A stretch of 64,000 bases of DNA from Candidatus Peregrinibacteria bacterium (GTDB lineage Bacteria > Patescibacteriota > Gracilibacteria > UM-FILTER-43-11), in the NCBI GenBank assembly GCA_016934215.1, contig JAFGTE010000013.1:39119-103118 (forward strand), in the 5' to 3' direction. Of this stretch, positions 2,223-42,034 are shown in pieces (the stretch's first letter is position 1; every line of letters begins with the position of its first letter). Position numbers and translations under genes: made by a program. The notes beneath the pieces are model-generated. The model had not been told where the DNA came from. It worked only from the letters and a program-made list of their open reading frames with translations, and ran no database searches.

Positions 2223-2720
2223 ATGTCAGATATTCAAATAGCCTTTCAGGACTTAACCCTCGGTGCAAAAGCTGCCAAACTCATTACTTTTGTGGGTCAG
2301 CTGGATGAAACCAATGTGGATCATGAGGCAAGAAAAATCTATCAGGTGATCACTGAAATGGCTGAGCCGGTCCTGCTTCTGGATTTTTCTGATCTTGAAT
2401 ACATGAATTCAAAGTCCATCGGTTATGTGACTGACTGGTTTACGCAAGCGAGCGCAAAGAACGGTTCGATTTCCATCATTGGTCCTAAACCAAATATTCT
2501 GGATATACTGAAAGTCGTTGGTATTACTCAGATCATCACTGTCTATAACACTCTGGAGGAAGCAAAAACTGCTCTCGGAGGAGCTTTTATTGCAGAGGTA
2601 GCCCCTGCTCCGGTTACCCCAGCTGCCCCTGCCGCATCCCCGCCCGCTGCCCCCACTGAGACGCCTGTTTCAGTCGCTCCCGCTGCCCCCACTGAGACGC
2701 CTGCCCCTCCGGCGGTTTAA
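2223..2720 (+). CDS. STAS-domain anti-anti-sigma factor (RsbV/SpoIIAA-like) with Pro/Ala-rich tail
   Basis: GQLD motif, LLDFSDLEYMNSKSIG phospho-Ser region, ILKVVGI motif. Confidence 0.88.
   Translation: MSDIQIAFQDLTLGAKAAKLITFVGQLDETNVDHEARKIYQVITEMAEPVLLLDFSDLEYMNSKSIGYVTDWFTQASAKNGSISIIGPKPNILDILKVVGITQIITVYNTLEEAKTALGGAFIAEVAPAPVTPAAPAASPPAAPTETPVSVAPAAPTETPAPPAV
2643..2703 (+). repeat. 25-bp direct repeat in the STAS gene tail (encodes PAAPTETP twice)
   Basis: CCCGCTGCCCCCACTGAGACGCCTG at 2643-2667 and 2679-2703. Confidence 0.8.
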
Positions 2721-2815
2721 TTTTTGTAATTGGTTTAATTTTAAAGAACACGCTTTTTCTTGCGGGTTCTTTTTTGTTATAATTACTTTTGAATCATTTT
2801 AGTCACTGAGAGAAA

Positions 2816-4249
2816 ATGAAAAAATTTTTACTTTTTTTAATACTGATCGCTGTCCTGGGCGGAGGGGTTTATTATTACCGAGCTATGATTTTTCCTGACA
2901 GAGGAAATACTCTCCGAGTTGTTATGAATACAGGGGCAACGGATATTTCGCCTTACGCTCTTAATTTAAATAACACAACCCGTATCAGAAATATTTATGA
3001 AGGGCTTGTGAGTTTTAATAAAAATTTAAAAATTGCTCCCGCCCTGGCCGTCAGCTGGGGCAATCTCGATAGCACCCATTGGGAATTCCGTCTCAGAGAA
3101 GGAGTGAAATTTCATGACGGCAGTGATTTTTCCGCTCAGAATGTAGTAGATTGCTTCAATAAAGCGAAAAACAGTTCAGATTCGCAAATTGCGAGCTATA
3201 TCAGTACGATCGAAGATGTGAGTATCAGTTCAAAGAACCGTATTGTCGTAACAACCCATTCTCCCGATCCTTTACTTCTTTCCAAATTGACGAAAATTTT
3301 TATTTACAAAGACAACAATATTGGGACCGGTCCTTATATGCTGGATGAATGGATTCAGGGCAAACGGTTTAGCCTGAAAGCATTTCCCGATTATTGGGGT
3401 GAAGCACCTTTTTTCCCCCAGGCTGAATATGAAGTCATATCAAATCGTTCAGAGCGAGAAAAAGCTTTTGCTGAAGGTGAGATAGATATTCTGGTAGGTC
3501 TTACTGAAGAGCAGGCGTTGGATTTGCCTAAAGATCAGGTCATTACCAATTATGGTCTTGAGGTGAATTTTCTGATGTTTCAATTGGATGATCCGGTTTT
3601 TGAAGACCGGAATATTCGCGAAGCCATTCAAACACTGATTGACCCTGATGAAGTGGAAGAAATTGGCAACCATTTTGTCAGAAGAAGCAATCAGTTTATT
3701 GCTGAAGGTGTATTTGGATATAACAAAGAGATTCCTTATTTCAAATATGATCCTGAAAATGAAGCCCGTGATTTATTCGGTAAAAGGCTTCAGCCGATTC
3801 GTCTGGATTATCTGGCCAGCTATGGAACGCTGGTCCAGTATCTTAAGAATAAGCTCCGGCTGGCCGGCTTCTCCGTAACGGAAACGGCTGATCAGCCCGA
3901 CGACCTTCTGGAGAAAATCGGCCGCAATGAATCCTCGTTCTTCTTAATCGGATGGCGCGCAGAAGATGGCGATGCCGGAGGATTTTTTGATGCCTTCATC
4001 CATTCTGACGGCCTTTATAACAATGGCCGATACAGTAACCCTGAAGTCGATGAACTCATCGAGCAAAGCCGGACGGAGATGGATCCTCAAAAAAGGCTGG
4101 TCATGCTGCAGGAGATCAGCGCCAAAGTTTCGGAGGACCTTATTGGCATTCCTCTCTTTGAGACTTCCAGACTTTATGGAATTGATAAGGGGGTCCTATG
4201 GGAGCCGCGACTGGACGGCGAAGTTCTTGCCGCTGAAATTAGCCGATAG
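2816..4249 (+). CDS. ABC transporter substrate-binding protein, family 5 (peptide/nickel type), orphan
   Basis: NIYEGLV, PALAVSW, FRLREGVKFHDGS and GTGPY motifs; N-terminal membrane anchor. Confidence 0.9.
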   Translation: MKKFLLFLILIAVLGGGVYYYRAMIFPDRGNTLRVVMNTGATDISPYALNLNNTTRIRNIYEGLVSFNKNLKIAPALAVSWGNLDSTHWEFRLREGVKFHDGSDFSAQNVVDCFNKAKNSSDSQIASYISTIEDVSISSKNRIVVTTHSPDPLLLSKLTKIFIYKDNNIGTGPYMLDEWIQGKRFSLKAFPDYWGEAPFFPQAEYEVISNRSEREKAFAEGEIDILVGLTEEQALDLPKDQVITNYGLEVNFLMFQLDDPVFEDRNIREAIQTLIDPDEVEEIGNHFVRRSNQFIAEGVFGYNKEIPYFKYDPENEARDLFGKRLQPIRLDYLASYGTLVQYLKNKLRLAGFSVTETADQPDDLLEKIGRNESSFFLIGWRAEDGDAGGFFDAFIHSDGLYNNGRYSNPEVDELIEQSRTEMDPQKRLVMLQEISAKVSEDLIGIPLFETSRLYGIDKGVLWEPRLDGEVLAAEISR

Positions 4250-5770: not shown

Positions 5771-6592
5771 ATGACAAAAACTTTTGGTATCGTCGGGCAT
5801 CCGGTGGAACATTCACTTTCCCCTGCGATGCATAATGCTGCTTTCAGGTCTGAAAGTATTGATGCTGAGTACAGGCTTTTTGATGTCCATCCGGACAATC
5901 CTGATAATCTGGCAAATTTTTGCTATGAGACCGATATGAATCGTATTGGCGGTTTTAGTGTCACTATGCCTTACAAGGAACGTATTATGGATTACTGCGA
6001 CCATTTCGATCCTTTGGCTAAAATCATTGGTGCCGTGAATACCATTAAGAATGAAAAGTCGAATCTAAACGGTTACAACACTGACAGTCCTGGCGCTATG
6101 CAGGCTTTACAGGAAAAGACTAAATTACCCGGTAAAAAGGCGCTTGTGCTCGGCACCGGCGGTGCCGGACGCGCTATTATTTATGGGCTTAAGGAATACG
6201 GTGCGCAGGTGCATATTTTTGATCGCATACTTTCGAAGATGGAAAAAACGGCTGAACAATTTGAGGTAGACACAATTGATTTAAGAACTATTAAAGAGGC
6301 CGAATTCGATATTATTGTGAATGCCACTCCGGTAGGCAGCTTTCCGCAAATTGAGCAGAGTCTGCTGACTGCCGAACAGATTAAACAAGGAGCCCTAGTT
6401 ATGGATATTGTGACTAATCCTTTGGAAACACAGCTGCTAAAGGAAGCTAAGAAAGCCGGTGCTGAAACGATTTCGGGCGAAAGGATGCTGCTTCATCAGG
6501 CGGCCGGCCAATTTACTATTTGGTTTGAGAAACCCGCCCCCTTTGAAGTTATGGAAAAAGCACTTTATGAGGAACTGAAAAAAAGGAGGTAG
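5771..6592 (+). CDS. aroE: Shikimate dehydrogenase
   Basis: GHPVEHSLSPAMHN, SVTMPYK, GAVNT, GYNTD, NATPVG and MLLHQA motifs. Confidence 0.93.
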   Translation: MTKTFGIVGHPVEHSLSPAMHNAAFRSESIDAEYRLFDVHPDNPDNLANFCYETDMNRIGGFSVTMPYKERIMDYCDHFDPLAKIIGAVNTIKNEKSNLNGYNTDSPGAMQALQEKTKLPGKKALVLGTGGAGRAIIYGLKEYGAQVHIFDRILSKMEKTAEQFEVDTIDLRTIKEAEFDIIVNATPVGSFPQIEQSLLTAEQIKQGALVMDIVTNPLETQLLKEAKKAGAETISGERMLLHQAAGQFTIWFEKPAPFEVMEKALYEELKKRR

Positions 6593-6624
6593 CATACCTC
6601 TTCAGAAAGATACCCACCAATGTT

Positions 6625-7251
6625 ATGAATCGAAAAAAAAGGGCTCAACAGATCATGCAGATTCTTGACCGACTCTATCCGAAGGCGCCTATTTTGCTTA
6701 AACATAAGCAAGACAACCACTTCACCTTTCTGGTGGCAGTATTGCTTTCAGCGAGAGCTACAGACAAAGTAGTGAACAAAATCACCCCGACACTTTTTGA
6801 GCTGGCTGACACCCCTGAAAAAATGATGAAGGTACCTGTAAAAAAAATCCGGGAGATTATTAAACCGATTGGCCTCTCCCCTGCTAAATCAAAGAATATT
6901 AAGGCGCTCAGTCAGATTTTGGTGAATCAATTTAAAGGTAAGGTTCCTGATTCCTTTGCAGCGCTTGAGAGTTTGCCTGGTGTAGGCCACAAAACAGCGT
7001 CGGTGATCATGGCCCAGGCGTTTCATCATCCGGCTTTTCCCGTGGATACCCATATTCACCGCCTGGCCAAACGCTGGGGACTTTCTAATGGCAAATCTGT
7101 AGTTCAGACGGAACGGGATTTAAAAAAAGTGTTTCCCAAAGAAAAATGGAAAAAATTACACCTTCAGATGATTTTCTTTGGCCGCGAGTATTGTAAAGCT
7201 CTGAAACACAAAGAAACTGATTGTCCCATCTGCTCAAGGTTTCAAACTTAG
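6625..7251 (+). CDS. nth: Endonuclease III (HhH-GPD glycosylase)
   Basis: LVAVLLSA, LPGVGHKTA HhH motif, PVDTHIHR; C-terminal Cys motif appears to have only three Cys. Confidence 0.92.
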   Translation: MNRKKRAQQIMQILDRLYPKAPILLKHKQDNHFTFLVAVLLSARATDKVVNKITPTLFELADTPEKMMKVPVKKIREIIKPIGLSPAKSKNIKALSQILVNQFKGKVPDSFAALESLPGVGHKTASVIMAQAFHHPAFPVDTHIHRLAKRWGLSNGKSVVQTERDLKKVFPKEKWKKLHLQMIFFGREYCKALKHKETDCPICSRFQT

Positions 7252-9284
7252 CGTACCAGAGCTATATCTGATACAAAAGTCTGATTGCGATTCAGTTCGG
7301 TTTCAAATATCGGTATCAGTGAAAAAGCGTTTGAAGAAATCGGATTGCTGTTCGTGACTATTAAGGAATCCGGTAAAATGATTTCTTTTTTTAACGTAAT
7401 ATTTTCGGCACCCGCCTGCTTTTCGGCAACAAACTGATAACTGTCTTCGGGATGGAAACTGAGATTAAAAGGTAAGAGGTAACGGATGGTGACTTCCTTT
7501 TCATCTCCTGCGTTGATGGGTCCGAGGGTGAAGGCAAATACGGTCCAGTCCAGGTCTTCGGATACTTCGATGGCCGTAAGATCGATACCGCTGGCATCCT
7601 GAAGAGCGCTGCCTTTTGGCACATAAACCCGCATATAATCAACGTTGGGGCCACGACCCAAAATAAAGTAAGCTGATTCTTCACCGAGGGCACCCGTGCC
7701 ATAACGGCTGATCAGATTGGCCAGTTTTGTTTCAGCATGATGATTCCAGGTGTGCGTTTTTTTAATCGTCAGGACATCTTCAATTTTTCCTTTCTCGCTG
7801 ATATGACTAAGGTGATGTAACTGCATGTGCATGTACTCATCACTTTTATTCCCACCGATCGCTGTAGTGATCACAGAAAGATAATCTTTTTTTTCAGCCG
7901 GCTTTTCTATAGCTCCATCTAAACCAATACGCACAATCAATTCCTGGACTCCCGGATGCATGGAATACATTTGCACATGACCTTCTTTAATGAGTTTTTT
8001 TCCTAAGTCAATCAGACGGCCCGTTTCGGAAAGATCAGGAATTTTTTTCTGCAGTACGGGGATCAGATCAAAAAGAAGCTGTTTGGGCGTAGCCGACTCA
8101 CTGAGTTTAGCTTCCGTATAAAAAGAAATGATGTCGCTGAAATTCCCGGCACGGATCTGAAACGGAAAACTGGGCAAAACCACCGGCCCTGTCAATTCCA
8201 GCAAGCCTTCAACCACATTCTGGTCAATGGCAATGACCGTATCGACCGAAGGCCCTTTGCTGTGTTCTAAAAACCACATAATACTCTGAGCGCTTGTCGG
8301 AAAGTCGGGGCTGTAATTGGCATCCCGCATGTATAAGCGGTCGGCCACCTGGTCAATTCCCGGCGGCGGATCGACCATATCGTGAAGCTGACCATCGGTT
8401 TCATAAACGTCCTTCGTCTCCATTTTGCTGATCTTTCCGTCGTTCACATCAACGATCATATAACTGCCAATGAAGCCGCCTGTCGCCCTGAGCTCGTGGT
8501 TGTTCTGAAAAAGCAGCAGATAGCGATGCGGCACGTCATCCCCCAGCAGGCTTAAGAGCACATCAAAATTCTCATCCACTTCCAGCAAAGCCGCCATCAT
8601 CTGACCGATTTGCGTGCGGGCTGAGGCGATTTTCCTTCGCAGGTCTTCGGGCAGAATGTCATCGTTGATCGTCGCCATTTTACGCTGCAGTGAAGCTGCC
8701 ATGGCCAGAATTTCATCAAAAGCTATTTTTCTTTCTTTGAGCGCCTCAACCAGCCCTCCGTCCTCTCCGCCGGCCATTGCCAGCATAGCCTGGGGCAGTT
8801 CATTAAAACTCAGCATCAGCTCCGAAAGCTCCTGACCAATCTGAGTTACTTCCAGCGCACTTTCGATTAGTTTGTTGGCCGCGTCCAGATACAAGCCTTC
8901 CGACATAAATTGCTCATTTTGCGAGATTATAGGTTCCGCCGTCTGACTGAGCTTTTGAAAACTGGCTTCCGCCTCTAAAAAATGTGTTTTGGCGGCGGCT
9001 GCATTCTTTGCCAGTAAACTCTCTGCCCCTAATTTTATGCTTTCATAGCCTTCATAGGCGTTTTCCTGCCCCTCAAATATCATTTCCCGCCCCAGTACGT
9101 AAGCGTTCCCGATGCTCAGAAACAGAAAAGCTACCAAAGTGACGATCGCAAATAGGAAAAAATCGCTTCGCCGGCCCAATTGGGGCGGATTGGTCCCCTT
9201 TTTGGAAGGCCTGATATCAAAAAATTTTCCCTGCATGGGTTCGAGTCTGATGCCGCCTTTTTTTGGACTTTTCTTTTCGGACAT
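7248..9284 (-). CDS. DUF4012-like membrane-anchored protein
   Basis: N-terminal TM, helical stalk, and YLLLFQNNHELRATGGFIGS, RDANYSPDFP, GGNKSD and YMRVYVP motifs typical of DUF4012 proteins. Confidence 0.8.
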   Translation of the reverse strand: MSEKKSPKKGGIRLEPMQGKFFDIRPSKKGTNPPQLGRRSDFFLFAIVTLVAFLFLSIGNAYVLGREMIFEGQENAYEGYESIKLGAESLLAKNAAAAKTHFLEAEASFQKLSQTAEPIISQNEQFMSEGLYLDAANKLIESALEVTQIGQELSELMLSFNELPQAMLAMAGGEDGGLVEALKERKIAFDEILAMAASLQRKMATINDDILPEDLRRKIASARTQIGQMMAALLEVDENFDVLLSLLGDDVPHRYLLLFQNNHELRATGGFIGSYMIVDVNDGKISKMETKDVYETDGQLHDMVDPPPGIDQVADRLYMRDANYSPDFPTSAQSIMWFLEHSKGPSVDTVIAIDQNVVEGLLELTGPVVLPSFPFQIRAGNFSDIISFYTEAKLSESATPKQLLFDLIPVLQKKIPDLSETGRLIDLGKKLIKEGHVQMYSMHPGVQELIVRIGLDGAIEKPAEKKDYLSVITTAIGGNKSDEYMHMQLHHLSHISEKGKIEDVLTIKKTHTWNHHAETKLANLISRYGTGALGEESAYFILGRGPNVDYMRVYVPKGSALQDASGIDLTAIEVSEDLDWTVFAFTLGPINAGDEKEVTIRYLLPFNLSFHPEDSYQFVAEKQAGAENITLKKEIILPDSLIVTNSNPISSNAFSLIPIFETELNRNQTFVSDIALVR

Positions 9285-37929: not shown

Positions 37930-38334
37930 CTATTTCAGTTCAACTGTAGCACCAGCCTCCTCCAGCTGAGCTTTCATCTTTTCAGCATCCGCTTTCTTAA
38001 CATTTTCCTTGATTGTTTTGGGGGCTCCGTCAACGAGATCTTTGGCTTCTTTCAGACCCAGACCGGTAATCTCGCGAACGACCTTAATGACTGCGATTTT
38101 CTGCCCGCCGGCATTGGTCAGTTCCACTGTGAAGCTGTCTTTTGCCGCCTCAGCTTCTCCGCTTCCGCTGGCAGCACCCGCTGCAGCAACAGCGACAGGA
38201 GCGGCAGCGCTTACACCGAACTCCTCTTCCATGGCTTTAACCAGGTCAGCCAGTTCGAGCACACTGAGCTTTTTAACCTCATCAAGGATTCCCTTAGCGG
38301 CCTTGGATAATTTAATTTCTTTCTCGTCAGACAT
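37930..38334 (-). CDS. rplL: 50S ribosomal protein L7/L12
   Basis: [33 protein letters not shown] and [11 protein letters not shown] motifs. Confidence 0.98.
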
Positions 38335-38379: not shown

Positions 38380-38988
38380 TTAAGCAGTTTCCTCTTTCCC
38401 TTCTTCCTTAAGCCCCTCAGCCGGAGTTTTTTCTGTCTTTTCTTCCGTAACAGGGGGAACTTTTTCAGCTGGTTTGGTATCTTTATAAGCGTTTAAAACT
38501 CTTACAATACCACCCACTAAACTGTTACCGATACCGACAAAACCGGAAAGTGGTGAAATCATGGAACCAACTAATTTGGCTAGTAATTCTTCTTTGCCTG
38601 GAAGCTTGGCGTACTTTTGAATCACTTCGGGGCCAACTACTTTGCCGTCTACAATTCCTCCAAGCAATTTGATATTTTCGTTCTTCTTGGAATATTTATA
38701 GAGAATCTGAATTCCTGTTAACTCATCTTCGTATGAAAAAGTAGCGACAACCGGGCCTTCCATCACCGATTTATCCAGTTCGCCCACTTTATCTTTTGCA
38801 GCTAGTGTGATCAGGGTTTTTTTGGCTACTTTCATTTCAGCATTTTTTTTGCGAAGTTCTCTCCGAAGTTCGGAAATACTGGCGACATCAAGCCCACGAT
38901 AATCCGCAAAAACAACCGATTTACTGCGACCGAATCTATCAACAAGGTCTTGGAGGATTGCTTCTTTTTTCTGTCTGGTAATTGCCAT
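38380..38988 (-). CDS. rplJ: 50S ribosomal protein L10
   Basis: DYRGL, ELRRELR, VAKKTL, LPGKEELLAKL motifs; directly upstream of rplL. Confidence 0.96.
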   Translation of the reverse strand: MAITRQKKEAILQDLVDRFGRSKSVVFADYRGLDVASISELRRELRKKNAEMKVAKKTLITLAAKDKVGELDKSVMEGPVVATFSYEDELTGIQILYKYSKKNENIKLLGGIVDGKVVGPEVIQKYAKLPGKEELLAKLVGSMISPLSGFVGIGNSLVGGIVRVLNAYKDTKPAEKVPPVTEEKTEKTPAEGLKEEGKEETA

Positions 38989-38999
38989 AATATTAAAAT

Positions 39000-39130
39000 A
39001 AAAAACTCAGCGCGCAGACGATGAGACAGGACTAAGGATTAAGGACTAAGGACTAAGTGCCCCTATCCCAATCAATACCTTAGATGTGTATCTCGGCAGG
39101 TCTTACTAAATGCCTGCTGTCTGCGACAAC
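39000..39130 (-). promoter_or_regulatory. L10 leader (rplJ autoregulatory RNA) with putative terminator
   Basis: Minus strand reads GCAGACAGCAGG-CATTTAGTAAGA-CCTGCCGAG, matching the L10-leader core; downstream CTCA...TGAG followed by TTTTTT. Confidence 0.8.
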
Positions 39131-39172
39131 AAGCATTATATGGGTCTGAGAGCTGAAGTCAAATGTTTTTTA

Positions 39173-40876
39173 TTAAATCGATTTATCAGCCTTTTTGAGT
39201 CGTTCTTCCGCCTGGGGAAAAGAAGAGATGGCATGCAGCATGGCCTGAACACTGGCTACTTTTTCATCTCCGTCGACAGAGTAACCGGTTCTTTCTGTGT
39301 TGGTTGCCATACATCGCATGGTTACCATGGCAACCACTTCTGAATCCGCACCTTCATCTGTATTATAGGTTTCCCAATGAGTCAATTTCAAATTAAGTCC
39401 CAGTTCTTTTTCCAATGTCTCTTCCACAATCGGTAAAGATCCCCCCGTTGAGTCTCCACTTCCAGATTTTTCTTCTCCATTAATGGCATAAGTGAAATCC
39501 AGGTGTGTTCTGCGCTTTCCCCCTTTTTCCTCAGGGACCCGGCTCTTGGGATCAAAGTCTCTCAAATAAATCAGTTTGCCGTTTTCAATTTCTGCCCGCC
39601 TCACCACCTCGGGGTTACGGTAAACAAAGGTTCTGATGAAATTTAAACGTCCTTCCTTGCCCGCATAATCAGCATCTTCTCCCCTTTCAATGCTTTTTAG
39701 GTAATCCTCATAAATCCGGCTACAAATAGACAAAGGAAGATGGACCCCCATTTCTCCAAGGACTCCGGCGACTCCACTGCGCCCCATGGCCGGGCCCACT
39801 TTGTAAATATAGGCCGGTGCTCCAAAATCGGCTGGGTTCTTCTTAATGTAGGAATCCGGATCGGCATTGATTTTGTCTGCATGAATACCGGCCGCGGTGG
39901 ATCCGGTTTCATTGCCGACCACCCGGTGCTGGCTGAAATCTATACCAAAAACGGGGGCAGTTACTTCTGCCAAATGGCGCATATGCTCTGGATTTACTGT
40001 GATTTCATTGATCTTACCTGATGTTTGGAAGCGTTGCACTACATGAATTATGTCAGCATTTCCGGAACGTTCACCCACCCCCAGTACTGTCACCCCAAGC
40101 TGACGGGCTCCTGCCCGGTAGGCCTGAATCGTATTTTCTACCGCAAGTCCGTTGTCGTCGTGACAGTGGGCAGCGGTAATCAGTCTCCTGTAAGCAAATT
40201 CGGCGGCCATACCACTGACCAGCTGACTGTAATGTCGATGTAATTTTTCATGCTCATTGGGGTCATCCAGATTGCTGCCGGCCGTTCCATGCGTGTCCGG
40301 ATAATCCAGTGTCAGTTCCAGATTCGTTCGGTATTCAGGAGGTGTGAGTTCGTTAGCCCGTCTGATGGCGGCCTGAGTCAGCTCATCCATAAAACCTAAG
40401 TCTTTTACCTGGCTGGCTCCCTCAAAATAAATGTGCAGTTTTGGTGCCTGGCCGCGTTTAGTGAATTCCTTAATACTGTTTTCAATGCCGGAGGTCATCC
40501 TTCGCATGGCTTCTTCTTTACTCACCCCTTTGGCTTCACGAAGACACTCTGCCGTGGGTGTCAGCATGGACATACGCGCTCTCCCCTGATGAATAGCTTC
40601 ATCCAAAGTGCCTACCGCTTCTACAATGTCTTTTTCGACTCCATCACGTACAAAAGCAGCCAGTTCAATCTGCTTGGTTGTTTTAAAGATCTGGCGAATC
40701 ATATCACGATTAGGCCCACTCGTAGCCATGGGCATTTCGGCCACATTGACACCGGCTTCTTCCAGTGCCACCGCGATTTTAACGGCTTCATCGGTTTTGA
40801 TTTGTTTTTCGGCCGCCTGGGCGCCGTCACGCAGGGTGGTGTCAAAAAATATTACGTTTTCCTGTTCTGGGTTCAT
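39173..40876 (-). CDS. DRE-TIM enzyme of the LeuA/CimA family (2-isopropylmalate or citramalate synthase-like), divergent
   Basis: FDTTLRDGAQ, HCHDDNGLA, GVGERSGNA and AGIH motifs, plus a C-terminal allosteric domain. Confidence 0.85.
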   Translation of the reverse strand: MNPEQENVIFFDTTLRDGAQAAEKQIKTDEAVKIAVALEEAGVNVAEMPMATSGPNRDMIRQIFKTTKQIELAAFVRDGVEKDIVEAVGTLDEAIHQGRARMSMLTPTAECLREAKGVSKEEAMRRMTSGIENSIKEFTKRGQAPKLHIYFEGASQVKDLGFMDELTQAAIRRANELTPPEYRTNLELTLDYPDTHGTAGSNLDDPNEHEKLHRHYSQLVSGMAAEFAYRRLITAAHCHDDNGLAVENTIQAYRAGARQLGVTVLGVGERSGNADIIHVVQRFQTSGKINEITVNPEHMRHLAEVTAPVFGIDFSQHRVVGNETGSTAAGIHADKINADPDSYIKKNPADFGAPAYIYKVGPAMGRSGVAGVLGEMGVHLPLSICSRIYEDYLKSIERGEDADYAGKEGRLNFIRTFVYRNPEVVRRAEIENGKLIYLRDFDPKSRVPEEKGGKRRTHLDFTYAINGEEKSGSGDSTGGSLPIVEETLEKELGLNLKLTHWETYNTDEGADSEVVAMVTMRCMATNTERTGYSVDGDEKVASVQAMLHAISSFPQAEERLKKADKSI

Positions 40877-40897
40877 GATTAATAAAATTATGGAGGT

Positions 40898-40921
40898 AAA
40901 AAAAATCCGCCGGGTGGCGGA
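40898..40921 (-). terminator. Attenuator terminator upstream of the LeuA/CimA-like gene
   Basis: Minus strand TCCGCC-ACCC-GGCGGA-TTTTTTTT, ending 21 nt before the start codon. Confidence 0.88.
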
Positions 40922-40962
40922 GTAATGGTGCAGTTAGTTTTATTATGTGCAAAATTATCCGC

Positions 40963-41016
40963 CTAGGCAGGTTTCTGGATAATAATGCTAATAATGTTCT
41001 GGCTTACTGTGTTCAT
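40963..41016 (-). CDS. Ile-rich attenuation leader peptide MNTVSQNIISIIIQKPA (17 aa)
   Basis: ATG AAC ACA GTA AGC CAG AAC ATT ATT AGC ATT ATT ATC CAG AAA CCT GCC TAG; five Ile codons in six positions; overlaps the attenuator stems. Confidence 0.85.
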   Translation of the reverse strand: MNTVSQNIISIIIQKPA

Positions 41017-41024
41017 CGTGGGCG

Positions 41025-41053
41025 AGTTTAACGAGTGATAAAGAATATGTCAA
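41025..41053 (-). promoter_or_regulatory. Sigma70 promoter driving the leader peptide
   Basis: Minus strand TTGACA, 17-nt spacer, TAAACT, 8 nt before the leader ATG. Confidence 0.7.
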
Positions 41054-41101
41054 ATTTTTTTATCTATTTGCTATACTCATCAGGCAATACTTTATTTTTC
41101 T

Positions 41102-42034
41102 ATGAGACATTACATTGTCAATAAATCAGTGGCAGACACGCGCCTGGATCACTATCTTTCTAAGCAGAAACCTGATTTAACCCGTGCTTTTATTCAGAAA
41201 CTTATTAAAGGCGGTTCGGTTTTCGTGAATAGCAAAAAAATAACCAAGGCCAGCCATAAGCTAAAAGAGGGAGATGAACTTACTATCATCATTCCTTCCA
41301 TCAAAGAAGTCGGCATCGTGGCCGAAGCGATTCCGCTTGATATTGTTTACGAAGATTCCGATATTATTGTGGTGAATAAGCCGGCCGGAATGGTCGTGCA
41401 CCCCACGGATCACGGAGCGCATGTTTCAGGCACGCTGGTAAACGCTTTAATGCACCATTGTAAGGATTTATCAGGCATTGGCGGGGAAAAACGTCCCGGA
41501 ATCGTCCACCGCCTGGATAAAGACACTTCCGGTCTTATTATTTCGGCTAAAAATGATCAGGCACATCAGTTTATTTCAAAACAAATTGAGGGAAGAACGG
41601 TGGTCAAGAAATATTTCACCCTGCTCAAAGGCCATCTGAGCCCCAAAGAAGGCAGTATCGAGGCACCTCTTATAAAAAGCCATGCGGGAGGTAAAAAAGA
41701 TATGCAGATCTCCGGGAAAGCCAGCGCCAAATATGCCCTGACTCACTATAAAGTCGTTAAATATGTGGGTGATTATTCGTTGGTCGAGGTCCGGATTGTA
41801 ACAGGGCGAACTCACCAGATCCGCGTACATTTTAAGGCTATCGGTCATCCGGTCTGTGGGGACAGTATGTATGGTGATGCCGGGGCAAATGAAAAACTGC
41901 GTGAGCTGGGGCTGACCCGGCAGTTTCTGCATGCCACGGAACTGATTTTTAAACTGCCTAAAAATCAAAAAGAGCTCCACCTGAAGGCTGAGCTCCCGAA
42001 AGATCTGAATGATGTTTTAAAGAAGCTTATTTAA
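41102..42034 (+). CDS. rluD: RluA/RluD-family pseudouridine synthase
   Basis: S4 domain, VNKPAGMVVHP, HRLDKDTSG and GRTHQIRVH motifs. Confidence 0.9.
   Translation: MRHYIVNKSVADTRLDHYLSKQKPDLTRAFIQKLIKGGSVFVNSKKITKASHKLKEGDELTIIIPSIKEVGIVAEAIPLDIVYEDSDIIVVNKPAGMVVHPTDHGAHVSGTLVNALMHHCKDLSGIGGEKRPGIVHRLDKDTSGLIISAKNDQAHQFISKQIEGRTVVKKYFTLLKGHLSPKEGSIEAPLIKSHAGGKKDMQISGKASAKYALTHYKVVKYVGDYSLVEVRIVTGRTHQIRVHFKAIGHPVCGDSMYGDAGANEKLRELGLTRQFLHATELIFKLPKNQKELHLKAELPKDLNDVLKKLI

What the first reader, a model, noticed from the sequence alone, without database searches (positions are those of the whole stretch)
39173..41053. Complete isoleucine-sensing leader-peptide attenuator controlling a lone LeuA/CimA-like gene in a CPR-like genome
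Seen (minus strand): promoter TTGACA-17-TAAACT is followed 8 nt later by an unannotated, nearly leaderless uORF, MNTVSQNIISIIIQKPA, with five Ile codons. Stem 1:2 is ATTATCC/GGATAAT and overlaps the Ile codons. Antiterminator 2:3 is GGCGGATAAT/ATTA-C-TCCGCC. Terminator 3:4 is TCCGCC-ACCC-GGCGGA-T8. Established: this is the architecture of ribosome-mediated attenuation, and citramalate synthase starts the threonine-independent Ile route. Inference: the enzyme is an Ile-regulated CimA-like synthase rather than LeuA. This is unexpected in a lineage regarded as largely auxotrophic, and no leuBCD or ilv genes are in the window, so the product may feed another pathway or a host.
Basis: partly seen in the sequence, partly recalled or inferred. 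Interest (0 to 1): 0.82.

Follow-up and report, generated by a model that had tools for sequence, protein, structure and literature searches.

The report
Isoleucine attenuator before orphan LeuA-like gene
A tiny upstream reading frame rich in isoleucine codons, followed by switchable RNA hairpins, appears to turn on a lone and very divergent LeuA-type enzyme gene when isoleucine runs short, in a small-genome bacterium that lacks the rest of the pathway.

Summary
A promoter-like site, a 17-codon uORF with 5 Ile codons, 1:2, 2:3 and 3:4 pairings and a T8 tail precede a 567-aa LeuA-family gene.

The attenuator is not chance. The same design with an Ile-rich uORF precedes the only full-length relative of this gene found in 401 class genomes (28% identity, another genus). 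A covariance model built from the leaders found a family of about 40 homologous leaders in the class. Their enriched codons often fit the gene controlled:
- Phe/Tyr leaders precede DAHP synthase.
- A Tyr leader precedes a Phe-hydroxylase-like gene.
- Leu leaders precede canonical LeuA.
- A Val/Ile leader precedes threonine synthase.

Folding with a ribosome mask gave the expected switch in 22 of 22 leaders tested.

The genome (1.01 Mb, 95.8% complete) has no leuB, leuC, ilvC, ilvD or ilvB family member, so the enzyme is an orphan. The enzyme keeps the catalytic residues and the full LeuA fold. It fails every LeuA, CimA and homocitrate-synthase equivalog cut-off and differs at conserved LeuA motif positions.

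An Ile leader here against Leu leaders on canonical LeuA favours an Ile-linked role. Citramalate synthase activity remains untested. The mechanism is classical; the lineage, the leader family and the targets are new.

The parts
41025..41053 (-). Promoter-like site: TTGACA, 17-nt spacer, TAAACT. The -10 ends 8 nt before the uORF ATG, which predicts a leaderless or nearly leaderless uORF.
   Evidence: 10 of 12 matches. G009 has TTGCCG-17-TAAACT ending 9 nt before its uORF ATG. In 22 of 38 family leaders the best promoter-like match ends 4-10 nt before the ATG. No transcript data are available.
40963..41016 (-). Leader peptide uORF: 17 codons plus TAG, MNTVSQNIISIIIQKPA. Ile is at codons 8, 9, 11, 12 and 13 (ATT x4, ATC x1).
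   Evidence: Homologous uORFs are MKTFATQIITTIIIPA (G009), MKTFAQNIIIIIENSA (G019) and MPKNLQQNIILSIIISPHRGA (G024).
40977..40995 (-). Region 1: the Ile codons and ATTATCC, forming the 5' arm of the 1:2 anti-antiterminator hairpin.
   Evidence: MFE fold. Masked when a ribosome stalls on the Ile codons.
40954..40963 (-). Region 2: GGCGGATAAT. It starts with the last base of the stop codon. It pairs with region 1 or with region 3.
   Evidence: A ribosome at the stop codon covers it.
40916..40926 (-). Region 3: ATTACTCCGCC, the 3' arm of the antiterminator and the 5' arm of the terminator.
   Evidence: 6 of 6 terminator-arm bases are paired in the 2:3 helix when the ribosome is stalled, and 0 of 6 when it is at the stop.
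40898..40921 (-). Intrinsic terminator: TCCGCC-ACCC-GGCGGA followed by T8.
   Evidence: (-10.2 kcal/mol). The same stem occurs in two paralogous leaders of this genome and in three leaders of G009, G001 and G002.
39173..40876 (-). 567-aa divergent LeuA-family (DRE-TIM) 2-oxoacid:acetyl-CoA condensing enzyme with a C-terminal LeuA-type regulatory domain. It is transcribed on its own; a separate promoter-like site and an L10-leader-like RNA follow it.
   Evidence: Pfam HMGL-like 116 bits and LeuA_dimer 25.8 bits. It is under all NCBIfam cut-offs. AF2 pLDDT is 94.8. The top fold matches are full-length M. tuberculosis LeuA. Catalytic residues are kept.

Best explanation
This is a classical ribosome-mediated transcription attenuator that senses charged tRNA-Ile.

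Proposed mechanism:
- Transcription starts a few bases before the uORF ATG.
- A ribosome translates the 17-codon leader while RNA polymerase transcribes the leader.
- When Ile-tRNA is plentiful, the ribosome reaches the TAG stop and covers region 2, which abuts the stop codon. Region 3 then pairs with region 4, and the TCCGCC/GGCGGA-T8 terminator stops transcription before the gene.
- When Ile-tRNA is scarce, the ribosome stalls on the five Ile codons and masks region 1. Region 2 pairs with region 3 as the antiterminator, and transcription reads into the gene.

The gene encodes a three-domain LeuA-type Claisen-condensing enzyme with intact catalytic residues. It belongs to a rare, fast-diverging clade with altered conserved LeuA motif positions. 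It most likely condenses acetyl-CoA with a 2-oxo acid other than 2-oxoisovalerate.

What is shown, what is inferred and what is open:
- Shown by sequence and comparison: the anatomy, its conservation, the switch in silico, and the absence of the rest of the pathway.
- Inferred: the response to Ile in vivo, leaderless initiation, and an Ile-linked role for the enzyme. My odds for citramalate-synthase-like activity are about one in three.
- Open: what the cell does with the product.

The confidence of 0.82 refers to the attenuator mechanism.
For: (1) Anatomy is confirmed.

(2) The in-silico switch works. With the ribosome at any Ile codon, the 2:3 helix forms at -15.2 to -16.0 kcal/mol, against -10.2 for the terminator. 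With the ribosome at the stop, region 3 is free.

(3) Conservation. G009, another genus of the same family, has a 575-aa homologue at only 28% identity. It is preceded by MKTFATQIITTIIIPA (5 Ile), GGCGG...TCCGCC-AAACAA-GGCGGA-T6 and a -10 TAAACT 9 nt before the ATG.

(4) A family of leaders.
- Model R1 hit 22 of 31 family genomes at E <= 0.1.
- Model R2 hit 18 of 151 class genomes at E <= 0.001.
- Of the 26 leaders aligned in A6, 22 have a uORF start inside the aligned part.
- With the ribosome stalled, all 22 sequester 3-6 of the 6 terminator-arm bases, and 21 of 22 sequester 4 or more.
- With the ribosome at the stop, 19 of 22 free the arm to 2 or fewer paired bases.
- In 17 of 22, 0 of 100 shuffles did as well.

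(5) The enriched codons often fit the target.
- 14 of 14 Phe/Tyr leaders of family f1 precede a DAHP-synthase-like ORF. The G000 copy was checked with Pfam: DAHP_synth_1 at 252.6 bits, followed by DHQ synthase.
- A YYY leader precedes a Phe-4-hydroxylase-like ORF (named by eye only).
- A Val/Ile leader precedes threonine synthase, which scores over the NCBIfam cut-offs.
- 5 of 5 inspected leaders before canonical LeuA are Leu-rich.

(6) Enzyme.
- Pfam finds HMGL-like and LeuA_dimer.
- R16, D17, E152, T195, H237, H239, E269, R270, N273 and H332 are invariant in the 9-sequence subfamily alignment A4.
- The AF2 model has pLDDT 94.8.
- The top Foldseek matches are full-length M. tuberculosis LeuA over about 580 columns.

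(7) No Rfam family matches the leader.

(8) The upstream gene is divergent (a pseudouridine synthase), so the terminator cannot belong to it.
Against: - There is no expression, Term-seq or Ribo-seq evidence.
- The uORF has no Shine-Dalgarno sequence, so its translation rests on the inferred leaderless start. The promoter match is only a consensus hit: 6 sites were found against 4.0 expected in the 2.6-kb scan.
- The genome has no leuB, leuC, ilvC, ilvD or ilvB family member. An Ile-biosynthetic use of the product inside this cell is therefore not possible as we know the pathway.
- Other Ile and Leu leaders of the same family control unrelated small ORFs without Pfam matches. The sensed amino acid therefore does not always name the function of the target.
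- The bona fide CimA genes of the class that I inspected (11 loci) have no such leader.
- By HMM score the protein is nearer to LeuA than to CimA models.
- Masked folds use a fixed 13-nt footprint and thermodynamic MFE, not kinetics.
Confidence: 0.82

Rival explanations
1. The attenuator is real and the enzyme is a true (R)- or (S)-citramalate synthase (pyruvate + acetyl-CoA). Its product is passed to, or completed by, a host or partner cell.
For: - An Ile-specific leader is conserved in two genera.
- Canonical LeuA genes of the class carry Leu leaders instead.
- Conserved LeuA motif positions differ from canonical LeuA.
- The C-terminal regulatory domain is retained.
Against: - No LeuCD, LeuB or Ilv enzymes are present in either genome.
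- CimA model scores are 74 and 52 bits against cut-offs of 450 and 950, lower than the LeuA model score of 140 bits.
- True CimA (TIGR00977) exists in 24 of 401 class genomes, but in 0 of 31 genomes of this family.
- The 11 true CimA loci inspected have no leader.
- No exporter is co-transcribed. In G009 a terminator separates the gene from the EamA transporter that follows.
Confidence: 0.33
2. The attenuator is real, but in this auxotrophic family the branched-chain leaders act as sensors of externally supplied Ile and Leu. They switch on a starvation set of genes. The LeuA-like enzyme is a neofunctionalised relic of the lost pathway, with a new substrate or role.
For: - Family f1 lacks the pathway, yet it keeps Ile, Leu and mixed leaders before orphan ORFs: 105 aa, 167 aa, 165 aa and 184 aa, none with a Pfam match above the curated cut-off (the 167-aa ORF has one weak match at 12.9 bits) and none alike.
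- The enzyme is only 28% identical between two genera of one family.
- In G019 an Ile leader with a different gene sits at the same place, upstream of rplJ.
- The enzyme clade is very rare: about 8 clusters among 1.84 billion representatives.
Against: - Catalytic residues and the regulatory domain are fully kept, which suits an ordinary metabolic enzyme.
- Nothing is known about the orphan ORFs.
- The idea is not directly testable with sequence alone.
Confidence: 0.35
3. The enzyme is an ordinary 2-isopropylmalate synthase (LeuA), and the Ile codons are incidental.
For: - The best HMM and PDB matches are LeuA.
- Automatic names of relatives say 2-isopropylmalate synthase.
Against: - The score of 140 bits is far under the LeuA cut-offs of 532-748.
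- Canonical motifs are changed: RIHxFxATS, EDAxR, PDTVGY and AHESGIH.
- There is no source of 2-oxoisovalerate and no LeuBCD.
- Five canonical LeuA genes in the class use Leu leaders.
Confidence: 0.07
4. The leader works without a ribosome, for example as a T-box, a riboswitch or a protein-bound RNA, and the uORF is a by-product.
For: - There is no Shine-Dalgarno sequence before the uORF.
- Some mixed-type leaders have no clear run of one codon.
Against: - No Rfam match was found even at E <= 10.
- The leader is about 120 nt, too short for a T-box as I recall its size.
- The uORF, its length of 14-21 codons and the placement of its stop at region 2 are kept across the family, while the enriched codons change with the target gene.
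Confidence: 0.04
5. The arrangement is a chance combination of a short ORF and an ordinary terminator.
For: Consensus promoter-like hits are common: 6 found against 4.0 expected.
Against: - The upstream gene is divergent.
- Conservation across genera and the family of leaders argue against chance.
- 0 of 100 spacer shuffles reached the observed pairing and energy, and 0 of 200 shuffles of the whole leader fold as well.
- Only 4 of 8013 short ORFs have such an Ile run.
Confidence: 0.01

Closest known systems
Enterobacterial leader-peptide attenuators (trpL, leuL, ilvL/ivbL, thrL, pheL, hisL; Rfam Leu_leader, Thr_leader and others). The names are recalled.
   Same: - A short uORF enriched in codons of the regulated amino acid.
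- Four RNA segments giving alternative 1:2, 2:3 and 3:4 pairings.
- An intrinsic terminator just before the gene.
- A stop codon placed so that a finishing ribosome blocks region 2.
   Different: - There is no sequence or model match to any Rfam leader.
- The uORF has no Shine-Dalgarno sequence and starts about 8 nt after the -10.
- The host is a ~1 Mb genome of a Candidate Phyla Radiation class.
- The target is a single orphan enzyme gene, not a biosynthetic operon.
Actinobacterial leaderless leader-peptide attenuators, for example Corynebacterium glutamicum ilvBNC
   Same: The leader peptide is translated from a leaderless mRNA, and hairpins decide termination. I read passages of the Discussion of PMC11857589, which treats translation initiation of leaderless mRNA in that attenuator.
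   Different: - The phylum is different and no sequence relation was tested.
- There the target is a complete BCAA operon, whereas here the pathway is missing.
2-isopropylmalate synthase LeuA (M. tuberculosis 1SR9/3FIG/3HPS; N. meningitidis 3RMJ)
   Same: - Three-domain architecture: TIM-barrel catalytic domain, linker subdomains and a C-terminal regulatory domain.
- The R-D...H-x-H...E-R-x-G-N...H residues are kept.
   Different: - Identity to the solved LeuA structures is 16-24%.
- The score is 140 bits against cut-offs of 532 or more.
- Canonical motifs are altered.
- The gene is regulated by an Ile leader, not a Leu leader.
Citramalate synthase CimA (TIGR00977 type; Leptospira LiCMS 3BLE/3BLI)
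   Same: It belongs to the same superfamily and has the same catalytic fold (TM-score 0.79-0.82 normalised by the target's length). A link to Ile is suggested by the Ile leader.
   Different: - Scores are 74 bits against a cut-off of 450 for TIGR00977, and 52 against 950 for the Leptospira type.
- True CimA genes of the class are a separate set of proteins: 24 of 401 class genomes, none in this family.
- The 11 inspected CimA loci carry no leader.

Membership tests
Ribosome-mediated leader-peptide transcription attenuator | A short translated uORF enriched in codons of the sensed amino acid | tested here: met
   5 of 17 codons are Ile. Only 4 of 8013 short ORFs in the genome have such a run. 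The feature is conserved in G009, G019 and G024. Translation itself is not shown.
Ribosome-mediated leader-peptide transcription attenuator | Mutually exclusive antiterminator (2:3) and terminator (3:4) helices, with region 1 overlapping the regulatory codons | tested here: met
   In one search, 22 of 22 family leaders switch in masked folds.
Ribosome-mediated leader-peptide transcription attenuator | An intrinsic terminator (GC-rich stem plus U-run) between the uORF and the gene | tested here: met
   A 6-bp stem with 5 G-C pairs, a 4-nt loop and T8.
Ribosome-mediated leader-peptide transcription attenuator | Regulatory codons correspond to the pathway of the controlled gene | tested here: inconclusive
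   This holds for Phe/Tyr with DAHP synthase, Leu with LeuA, and Val/Ile with ThrC in relatives. A Tyr leader precedes a Phe-hydroxylase-like ORF that I named by eye. For this gene the substrate is unknown, and other Ile and Leu leaders control orphan ORFs.
Ribosome-mediated leader-peptide transcription attenuator | Read-through rises when the cognate charged tRNA is scarce | not testable with these tools
   This needs reporter or Term-seq experiments.
LeuA/CimA/homocitrate synthase family (DRE-TIM Claisen-condensing enzymes) | HMGL-like TIM barrel with the R-D, H-x-H and E-R-x-G-N residues | tested here: met
   Pfam PF00682 at 116.3 bits against a cut-off of 29. Invariant residues are listed.
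LeuA/CimA/homocitrate synthase family (DRE-TIM Claisen-condensing enzymes) | C-terminal LeuA-type allosteric domain | tested here: met
   PF08502 at 25.8 bits against a cut-off of 24.9. The full-length structural match to M. tuberculosis LeuA spans about 580 columns.
2-isopropylmalate synthase (equivalogs TIGR00973, NF002086 and others) | Score over the curated equivalog cut-off | tested here: not met
   The best score is 140.1 bits against a cut-off of 532.
Citramalate synthase (TIGR00977; NF042433) | Score over the curated equivalog cut-off | tested here: not met
   74.4 against 450, and 52.1 against 950. A search of the own genome with TIGR00977 finds no match at E <= 1e-60.
Citramalate synthase (TIGR00977; NF042433) | Uses pyruvate and is feedback-inhibited by Ile | not testable with these tools
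   This needs an enzyme assay.
T-box leader | Match to the T-box model, with specifier loop and T-box sequence | tested here: not met
   The Rfam scan of 38800-41300 at E <= 10 gives no T-box match and no other leader match in 40877-41053.

The most novel reading that the evidence does not exclude
In a family of small-genome bacteria that has lost branched-chain amino-acid synthesis, the ancestral biosynthetic attenuators were kept and re-used. They now sense host-supplied Ile and Leu. On starvation they switch on a set of lineage-specific genes. These are a neofunctionalised LeuA-type synthase with a new substrate and several orphan proteins, possibly directed at getting nutrients from a host.
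Probability: 0.3. Interest if true: 0.8.

Novelty: new member of a known kind. Interest (0 to 1): 0.62.

Why it matters
Gene regulation in the Candidate Phyla Radiation is almost unstudied. In the library I could search, no paper pairs leader-peptide attenuation with these bacteria:
- One search found 0 papers.
- One search found 0 papers.
- One search found 350 papers holding at least 2 of its 5 terms. None of the 15 listed holds 'transcription attenuation'. The only one holding 'leader peptide' uses it for bacteriocin precursors.

What this finding offers:
- A family of about 40 homologous attenuators with swapped sensor codons gives a ready read-out of which amino acids these cells monitor. 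Many of the uORFs appear to be leaderless.
- The family gives a functional hint for the genes behind the leaders, including orphan ORFs.
- The Ile-controlled, catalytically intact LeuA-type enzyme sits in genomes with no downstream pathway. It is a concrete, clonable test case for metabolic hand-offs or new enzyme chemistry in episymbionts.

Tried and rejected
- Rfam scan of the region found nothing in the leader.
- The metagenome scan with the protein returned only one locus at 25% identity (L015). It did not return the 2731-bp contig that holds the 59%-identical P0002, so the leader of P0002 could not be read.
- The genome-contig scan returned only the G009-like contig.
- No RNA holder was listed for the stretch. 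Laying 4 runs showed only the probable source assembly, plus short pieces of other organisms over the conserved TTLRDG region. Nothing can be said about expression.
- The first AF2 model, from a 3-sequence alignment, was poor (pLDDT 62.9). It was replaced by the 65-sequence model.
- The pattern CTCCGCCN{3,8}GGCGGATTTTT gave hits in 5 other class genomes. These were ordinary terminators without leader-like uORFs.
- R1 hits in G017, G026 and G010, and the R2 hit in G080, had no leader-like uORF. G020 and G122:C10 have uORFs with no clear enriched codon.
- In one search my script picked the wrong uORF for L097 and none for L091.
- My first masked-fold run placed the stall relative to the stop codon. 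It wrongly masked region 2 in leaders whose uORF runs through region 2. It was redone with the stall at the regulatory codons.
- I tested whether true CimA genes of the class carry Ile leaders. Across 12 loci, R2 gave two matches only, at E = 1.6 and 4.3. Neither a uORF nor a terminator was seen by eye in the 250 nt upstream of the 11 loci with a long ORF. This neither supports nor refutes the CimA reading.
- 23 of the 28 canonical LeuA loci gave no R2 match at E <= 1. I did not check whether leuA is internal to an operon in those.
- The two Leu-controlled ORFs (105 aa and 167 aa), the two Ile-controlled ORFs (165 aa and 184 aa) and the LeuA-like protein show no pairwise similarity in the three comparisons run.
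- I considered genetic code 25 for the own genome and rejected it. No tRNA(UCA) was found, and long ORFs are open under table 11.
- I did not try to infer substrate from individual pocket residues. The residue lists I recall for LiCMS and MtIPMS could not be checked: one search found no paper holding 'Leu81'.
- Supplementary files of papers were not consulted.
I added the field and sent the same report again.


Full report
**Observation**

- TTGACA (41053-41048), a 17-nt spacer, then TAAACT (41030-41025).
- 8 nt further, ATG at 41016 opens MNTVSQNIISIIIQKPA, with stop TAG at 40965-40963.
- GGCGGATAAT (40963-40954) follows, then ATTACTCCGCC (40926-40916).
- The terminator is TCCGCC-ACCC-GGCGGA (40921-40906) with T8 (40905-40898).
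- The gene ATG is at 40876.

The gene is a 567-aa ORF ending at 39173. The consensus scanner reports the same promoter-like and terminator-like sites. Promoter-like hits are common in that scan (6 found against 4.0 expected), so the promoter rests mainly on its conservation, described below.

The gene upstream is divergent. It is a pseudouridine synthase at 41102-42034 on the plus strand, so the terminator cannot serve it. Downstream of the enzyme gene lie a further promoter-like site, an L10-leader-like RNA and rplJ-rplL. The enzyme gene is therefore a unit of its own.

**Does the RNA switch?**

- The free leader folds into a long 1:2 hairpin over the Ile codons plus the terminator: -27.5 kcal/mol, z = -3.0, and 0 of 200 shuffles fold as well.
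- I then modelled the co-transcriptional state. Region 4 was not yet made, and the mRNA was masked up to 13 nt past the first base of the A-site codon.
- With the ribosome on any of the five Ile codons, region 3 is fully held in the 2:3 helix. That helix has -15.2 to -16.0 kcal/mol, against -10.2 for the terminator.
- With the ribosome on the stop codon, region 2 is covered and region 3 is free.
- These are thermodynamic folds with an assumed footprint, not kinetics.

**Is the arrangement more than chance?**

- In the whole genome there are 8013 ATG ORFs of 12-26 codons. Of these, 111 have 5 or more Ile, and 4 have 5 or more Ile within 7 codons.
- A scan looked for short ORFs with a run of one amino acid followed by a perfect GC-rich hairpin and a T-run. 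It returned 13 entries. Two loci stood out: this one, and a Leu-rich uORF on contig C11 with the same TCCGCC/GGCGGA stem at the same distance.

**Conservation**

- The protein has one close relative in 5.8 billion clusters: P0002 at 59% identity, on a 2.7-kb contig that I could not fetch. All other hits are 30% identical or less.
- Among 401 genomes of the class, only G000 (1061 bits) and G009 (866 bits) score high with the subfamily profile. The next best score is 158 bits.
- None of the 4 same-genus genomes has the gene.
- G009 belongs to another genus of the same family. Its protein is 28% identical over residues 8-553.
- Upstream of the G009 gene lie TTGCCG-17-TAAACT, then 9 nt, then ATG opening MKTFATQIITTIIIPA (5 Ile).
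- GGCGG follows, then TCCGCC-AAACAA-GGCGGA-T6. The same masked-fold switch works there.
- A leader kept while the protein drifted to 28% identity is strong evidence of function.

**A family of leaders**

- The own genome holds three more leaders of the same build.
- On C11, MVQNNALQLLLLLNVT precedes a 105-aa ORF without Pfam match or relatives.
- On C16, MNTWNVLHVVLVLNPL precedes a GC-rich stretch that may hold a small ORF.
- On C4, MHSSNYFFYGFYFKVR precedes DAHP synthase and 3-dehydroquinate synthase.
- A covariance model built from 7 leaders (R1) matched 22 of 31 family genomes at E <= 0.1.
- A second model built from 26 leaders (R2) matched 18 of 151 class genomes at E <= 0.001. That is 10 of 13 genomes in the family besides G000, and 7 of 137 in other families.

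Read by eye, the leaders fall into these groups:
- 14 Phe/Tyr leaders in the family, all 14 before a DAHP-synthase-like ORF. Only the G000 copy was checked with Pfam.
- A further Phe/Tyr leader in G009, also before a DAHP-synthase-like ORF.
- A Phe leader before a class-I DAHP-synthase-like ORF (G141), and one before a DhnA-type aldolase-like ORF (G144).
- A YYY leader before a Phe-4-hydroxylase-like ORF (G132). These last three names are mine, by eye.
- A Val/Ile leader before threonine synthase, which scores over the NCBIfam cut-offs (G016).
- Ile leaders before unknown ORFs of 165 aa (G019) and 184 aa (G024).
- A Leu leader before an unknown 167-aa ORF (G009).
- A Val leader (G087) before an unknown 126-aa ORF, and mixed hydrophobic leaders before unknown ORFs.

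Three R1 hits and one R2 hit were plain terminators.

Of the 26 aligned leaders, 22 have a uORF start inside the aligned part. For these 22:
- The stalled-ribosome fold sequesters 3-6 of the 6 terminator-arm bases in all 22, and 4 or more bases in 21.
- The ribosome-at-stop fold leaves 2 or fewer bases paired in 19.
- 0 of 100 spacer shuffles did as well in 17, and 1-7 of 100 did as well in the other 5.

In 22 of 38 leaders, the best -35/-10 match ends 4-10 nt before the ATG. Only 3 of the 38 have a Shine-Dalgarno-like word. Leaderless initiation therefore seems to be the common design. Leaderless leader-peptide attenuators are known in Actinobacteria (passages of PMC11857589).

**The enzyme**

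- Pfam finds HMGL-like (116 bits), LeuA_dimer (25.8 against a cut-off of 24.9) and a sub-threshold HCS_D2.
- All NCBIfam equivalogs fail. The best is LeuA at 140 bits against 532. CimA scores 74 against 450 and 52 against 950.
- A search of 1.84 billion representatives finds a thin tier of relatives: P0122-P0128 at 385-204 bits. General LeuA-like proteins follow at 172 bits or less. P0128 itself is nearly a canonical LeuA (479 against 532).
- In the 9-sequence subfamily alignment A4, which includes P0128, these residues are invariant: R16, D17, Q20, E47, T108, E152, T195, H237, H239, D241, E269, R270, N273 and H332.
- The 8 divergent members were compared with 56 canonical sequences. RIHxFxATS becomes R(I/M)x(M/L)L. 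EDAxR becomes EG(A/G)(S/T).
- In the same comparison, PDTVGY becomes (P/C)DT(H/N/T)G(T/S), and AHESGIH becomes (S/T)xxAG(I/M)H.
- The AF2 model from a 65-sequence alignment has pLDDT 94.8.
- Its best PDB matches are the full-length M. tuberculosis LeuA structures, at E about 1e-27 over about 580 columns. Catalytic domains of MAM synthase, homocitrate synthase, IPMS and Leptospira citramalate synthase follow.

The protein therefore looks like an active three-domain LeuA-type enzyme with changed conserved LeuA motif positions. Which substrate it takes cannot be read from this.

**Pathway context**

- The own genome is 1.01 Mb in 34 contigs, 95.8% complete.
- It uses the standard code: no tRNA(UCA) was found and long ORFs are open under table 11.
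- It has no match to Iso_dh, Aconitase, ILVD_EDD, KARI_C or TPP_enzyme_N. It has two class-IV aminotransferases.
- G009 also lacks Iso_dh, Aconitase and KARI_C. It has one TPP enzyme.
- By contrast, the five class genomes in which I found a Leu leader before canonical LeuA all have an aconitase-family gene (5 of 5).
- The record title of the G009-like contig calls it a Candidatus Gracilibacteria bacterium.
- One class member, G122, reads TGA as sense: 11 in-frame TGA codons lie in a short LeuA-like gene that sits behind a hydrophobic leader.

**LeuA or CimA?**

- I searched 28 canonical LeuA loci of the class with R2. Five matches lie just upstream of leuA.
- All five hold Leu-rich uORFs: MKNLTLGFLLLLLVREPR, MFSKIIPLLLILLEEIQVA, MMITKNLLLELLLLTR, MQKQLLLLELLLLRD and MTTIKTLLVNLLLLSPRG.
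- The other 23 loci gave no match at E <= 1.
- So where a leader precedes a canonical LeuA it senses Leu, while the divergent enzyme in two genera is behind an Ile leader. This is the best argument that the enzyme is linked to Ile and not to Leu.
- Against the CimA reading, true CimA (TIGR00977 over its cut-off) is present in 24 of 401 class genomes and in none of the 31 genomes of this family.
- The 11 such loci that I inspected have no leader, so no 'Ile leader = CimA' rule exists in the class.
- In this family, Ile and Leu leaders also control unrelated orphan ORFs.

I therefore hold two readings of the enzyme's role at about equal odds:
- It is a citramalate-type synthase whose product leaves the cell.
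- It is a neofunctionalised relic under a starvation sensor.

**Verdict**

- The attenuator is real, complete and Ile-specific by every test that sequence allows. Its mechanism is the textbook one.
- New are the lineage, a homologous and mostly leaderless family of leaders with swapped sensor codons that matches no Rfam family, and targets that include an orphan enzyme and orphan ORFs in an auxotroph.
- My literature searches found no description of leader-peptide attenuation in these bacteria. They cover only the open library.

Noticed in passing
own genome contig C11, L048:3421-3546 (-); ORF L048:3082-3399 (-): A paralogous Leu leader: TTGACA-17-TAAAAT, then uORF MVQNNALQLLLLLNVT, with the same TCCGCC/GGCGGA terminator. 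It precedes a 105-aa ORF with no Pfam match and no relative in 60 related genomes. The locus lies between two ArsP_1 permease genes.
   Followed up: partly
own genome contig C16, L050:1782-1905 (+) and about 500 nt downstream (C16:16400-16900): A third leader (MNTWNVLHVVLVLNPL) is followed by a ~300-nt stretch of 60% GC with no Rfam match. A possible 69-aa ORF there has an AAGGAG word before it. Leaders of the same type occur in the same-genus genomes G001 and G002. I saw downstream sequence resembling the C16 stretch in G001, and a peptide resembling the 69-aa ORF in G002, both by eye. Whether the region is coding or RNA is unresolved.
   Followed up: partly
own genome contig C4, L093:1375-1495 (+), genes L093:1511-2512 and 2516-3544: A Phe/Tyr-rich leader (MHSSNYFFYGFYFKVR) precedes DAHP synthase (with a ferredoxin-like N-domain) and 3-dehydroquinate synthase. 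The arrangement is conserved in 14 family genomes. I did not check whether the rest of the shikimate pathway is present.
   Followed up: partly
window 38990-39162 (-): A promoter-like site, TTGACT-16-TATAAT (39162-39135), is followed by an L10-leader-like RNA. Its Rfam RF00557 score is 26.9 bits, under the gathering score of 44. It lies before rplJ (38380-38988) and rplL (37930-38334).
   Followed up: partly
L069 (G019:C2) 1501-1624, ORF 1638-2135, rplJ from 2545: In another genus, an Ile leader (MKTFAQNIIIIIENSA) sits at the same place, upstream of rplJ. It controls an unrelated 165-aa ORF with no Pfam match instead of the LeuA-like gene.
   Followed up: partly
L103 (G132), L097 (G144), L098 (G141): Outside the family, three more leaders appear. 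A YYY leader precedes a Phe-4-hydroxylase-like ORF. Phe-rich leaders precede a DhnA-type aldolase-like ORF and a class-I DAHP-synthase-like ORF. I named these proteins by eye only.
   Followed up: no
L110 (G122:C9) 5980-7206 (-), 7334-7636 (-), leader 7649-7772 (-): This class member reads TGA as sense: 11 in-frame TGA codons lie in a 408-aa short LeuA-like gene. A hydrophobic leader (MNSRFSSLLVLILPSWGE) and a 100-aa ORF precede that gene.
   Followed up: partly
L112-L122, about 250 nt upstream of true cimA genes: Several copies of TTATCCACA-like words (they look like DnaA boxes; that name is recalled) lie in the intergenic region before bona fide citramalate synthase genes of another family. 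This may be a replication origin or DnaA control.
   Followed up: no
L006 3163-3227 and 3228-4172: In G009 the LeuA-like gene ends with its own hairpin and T6 terminator. An EamA-family transporter gene follows.
   Followed up: partly
own genome, all contigs: ARAGORN finds 38 tRNAs. None is tRNA-Ile(GAU) or tRNA-Ala, which probably lie in an unassembled rRNA operon. Three tRNAs carry a CAU anticodon.
   Followed up: no
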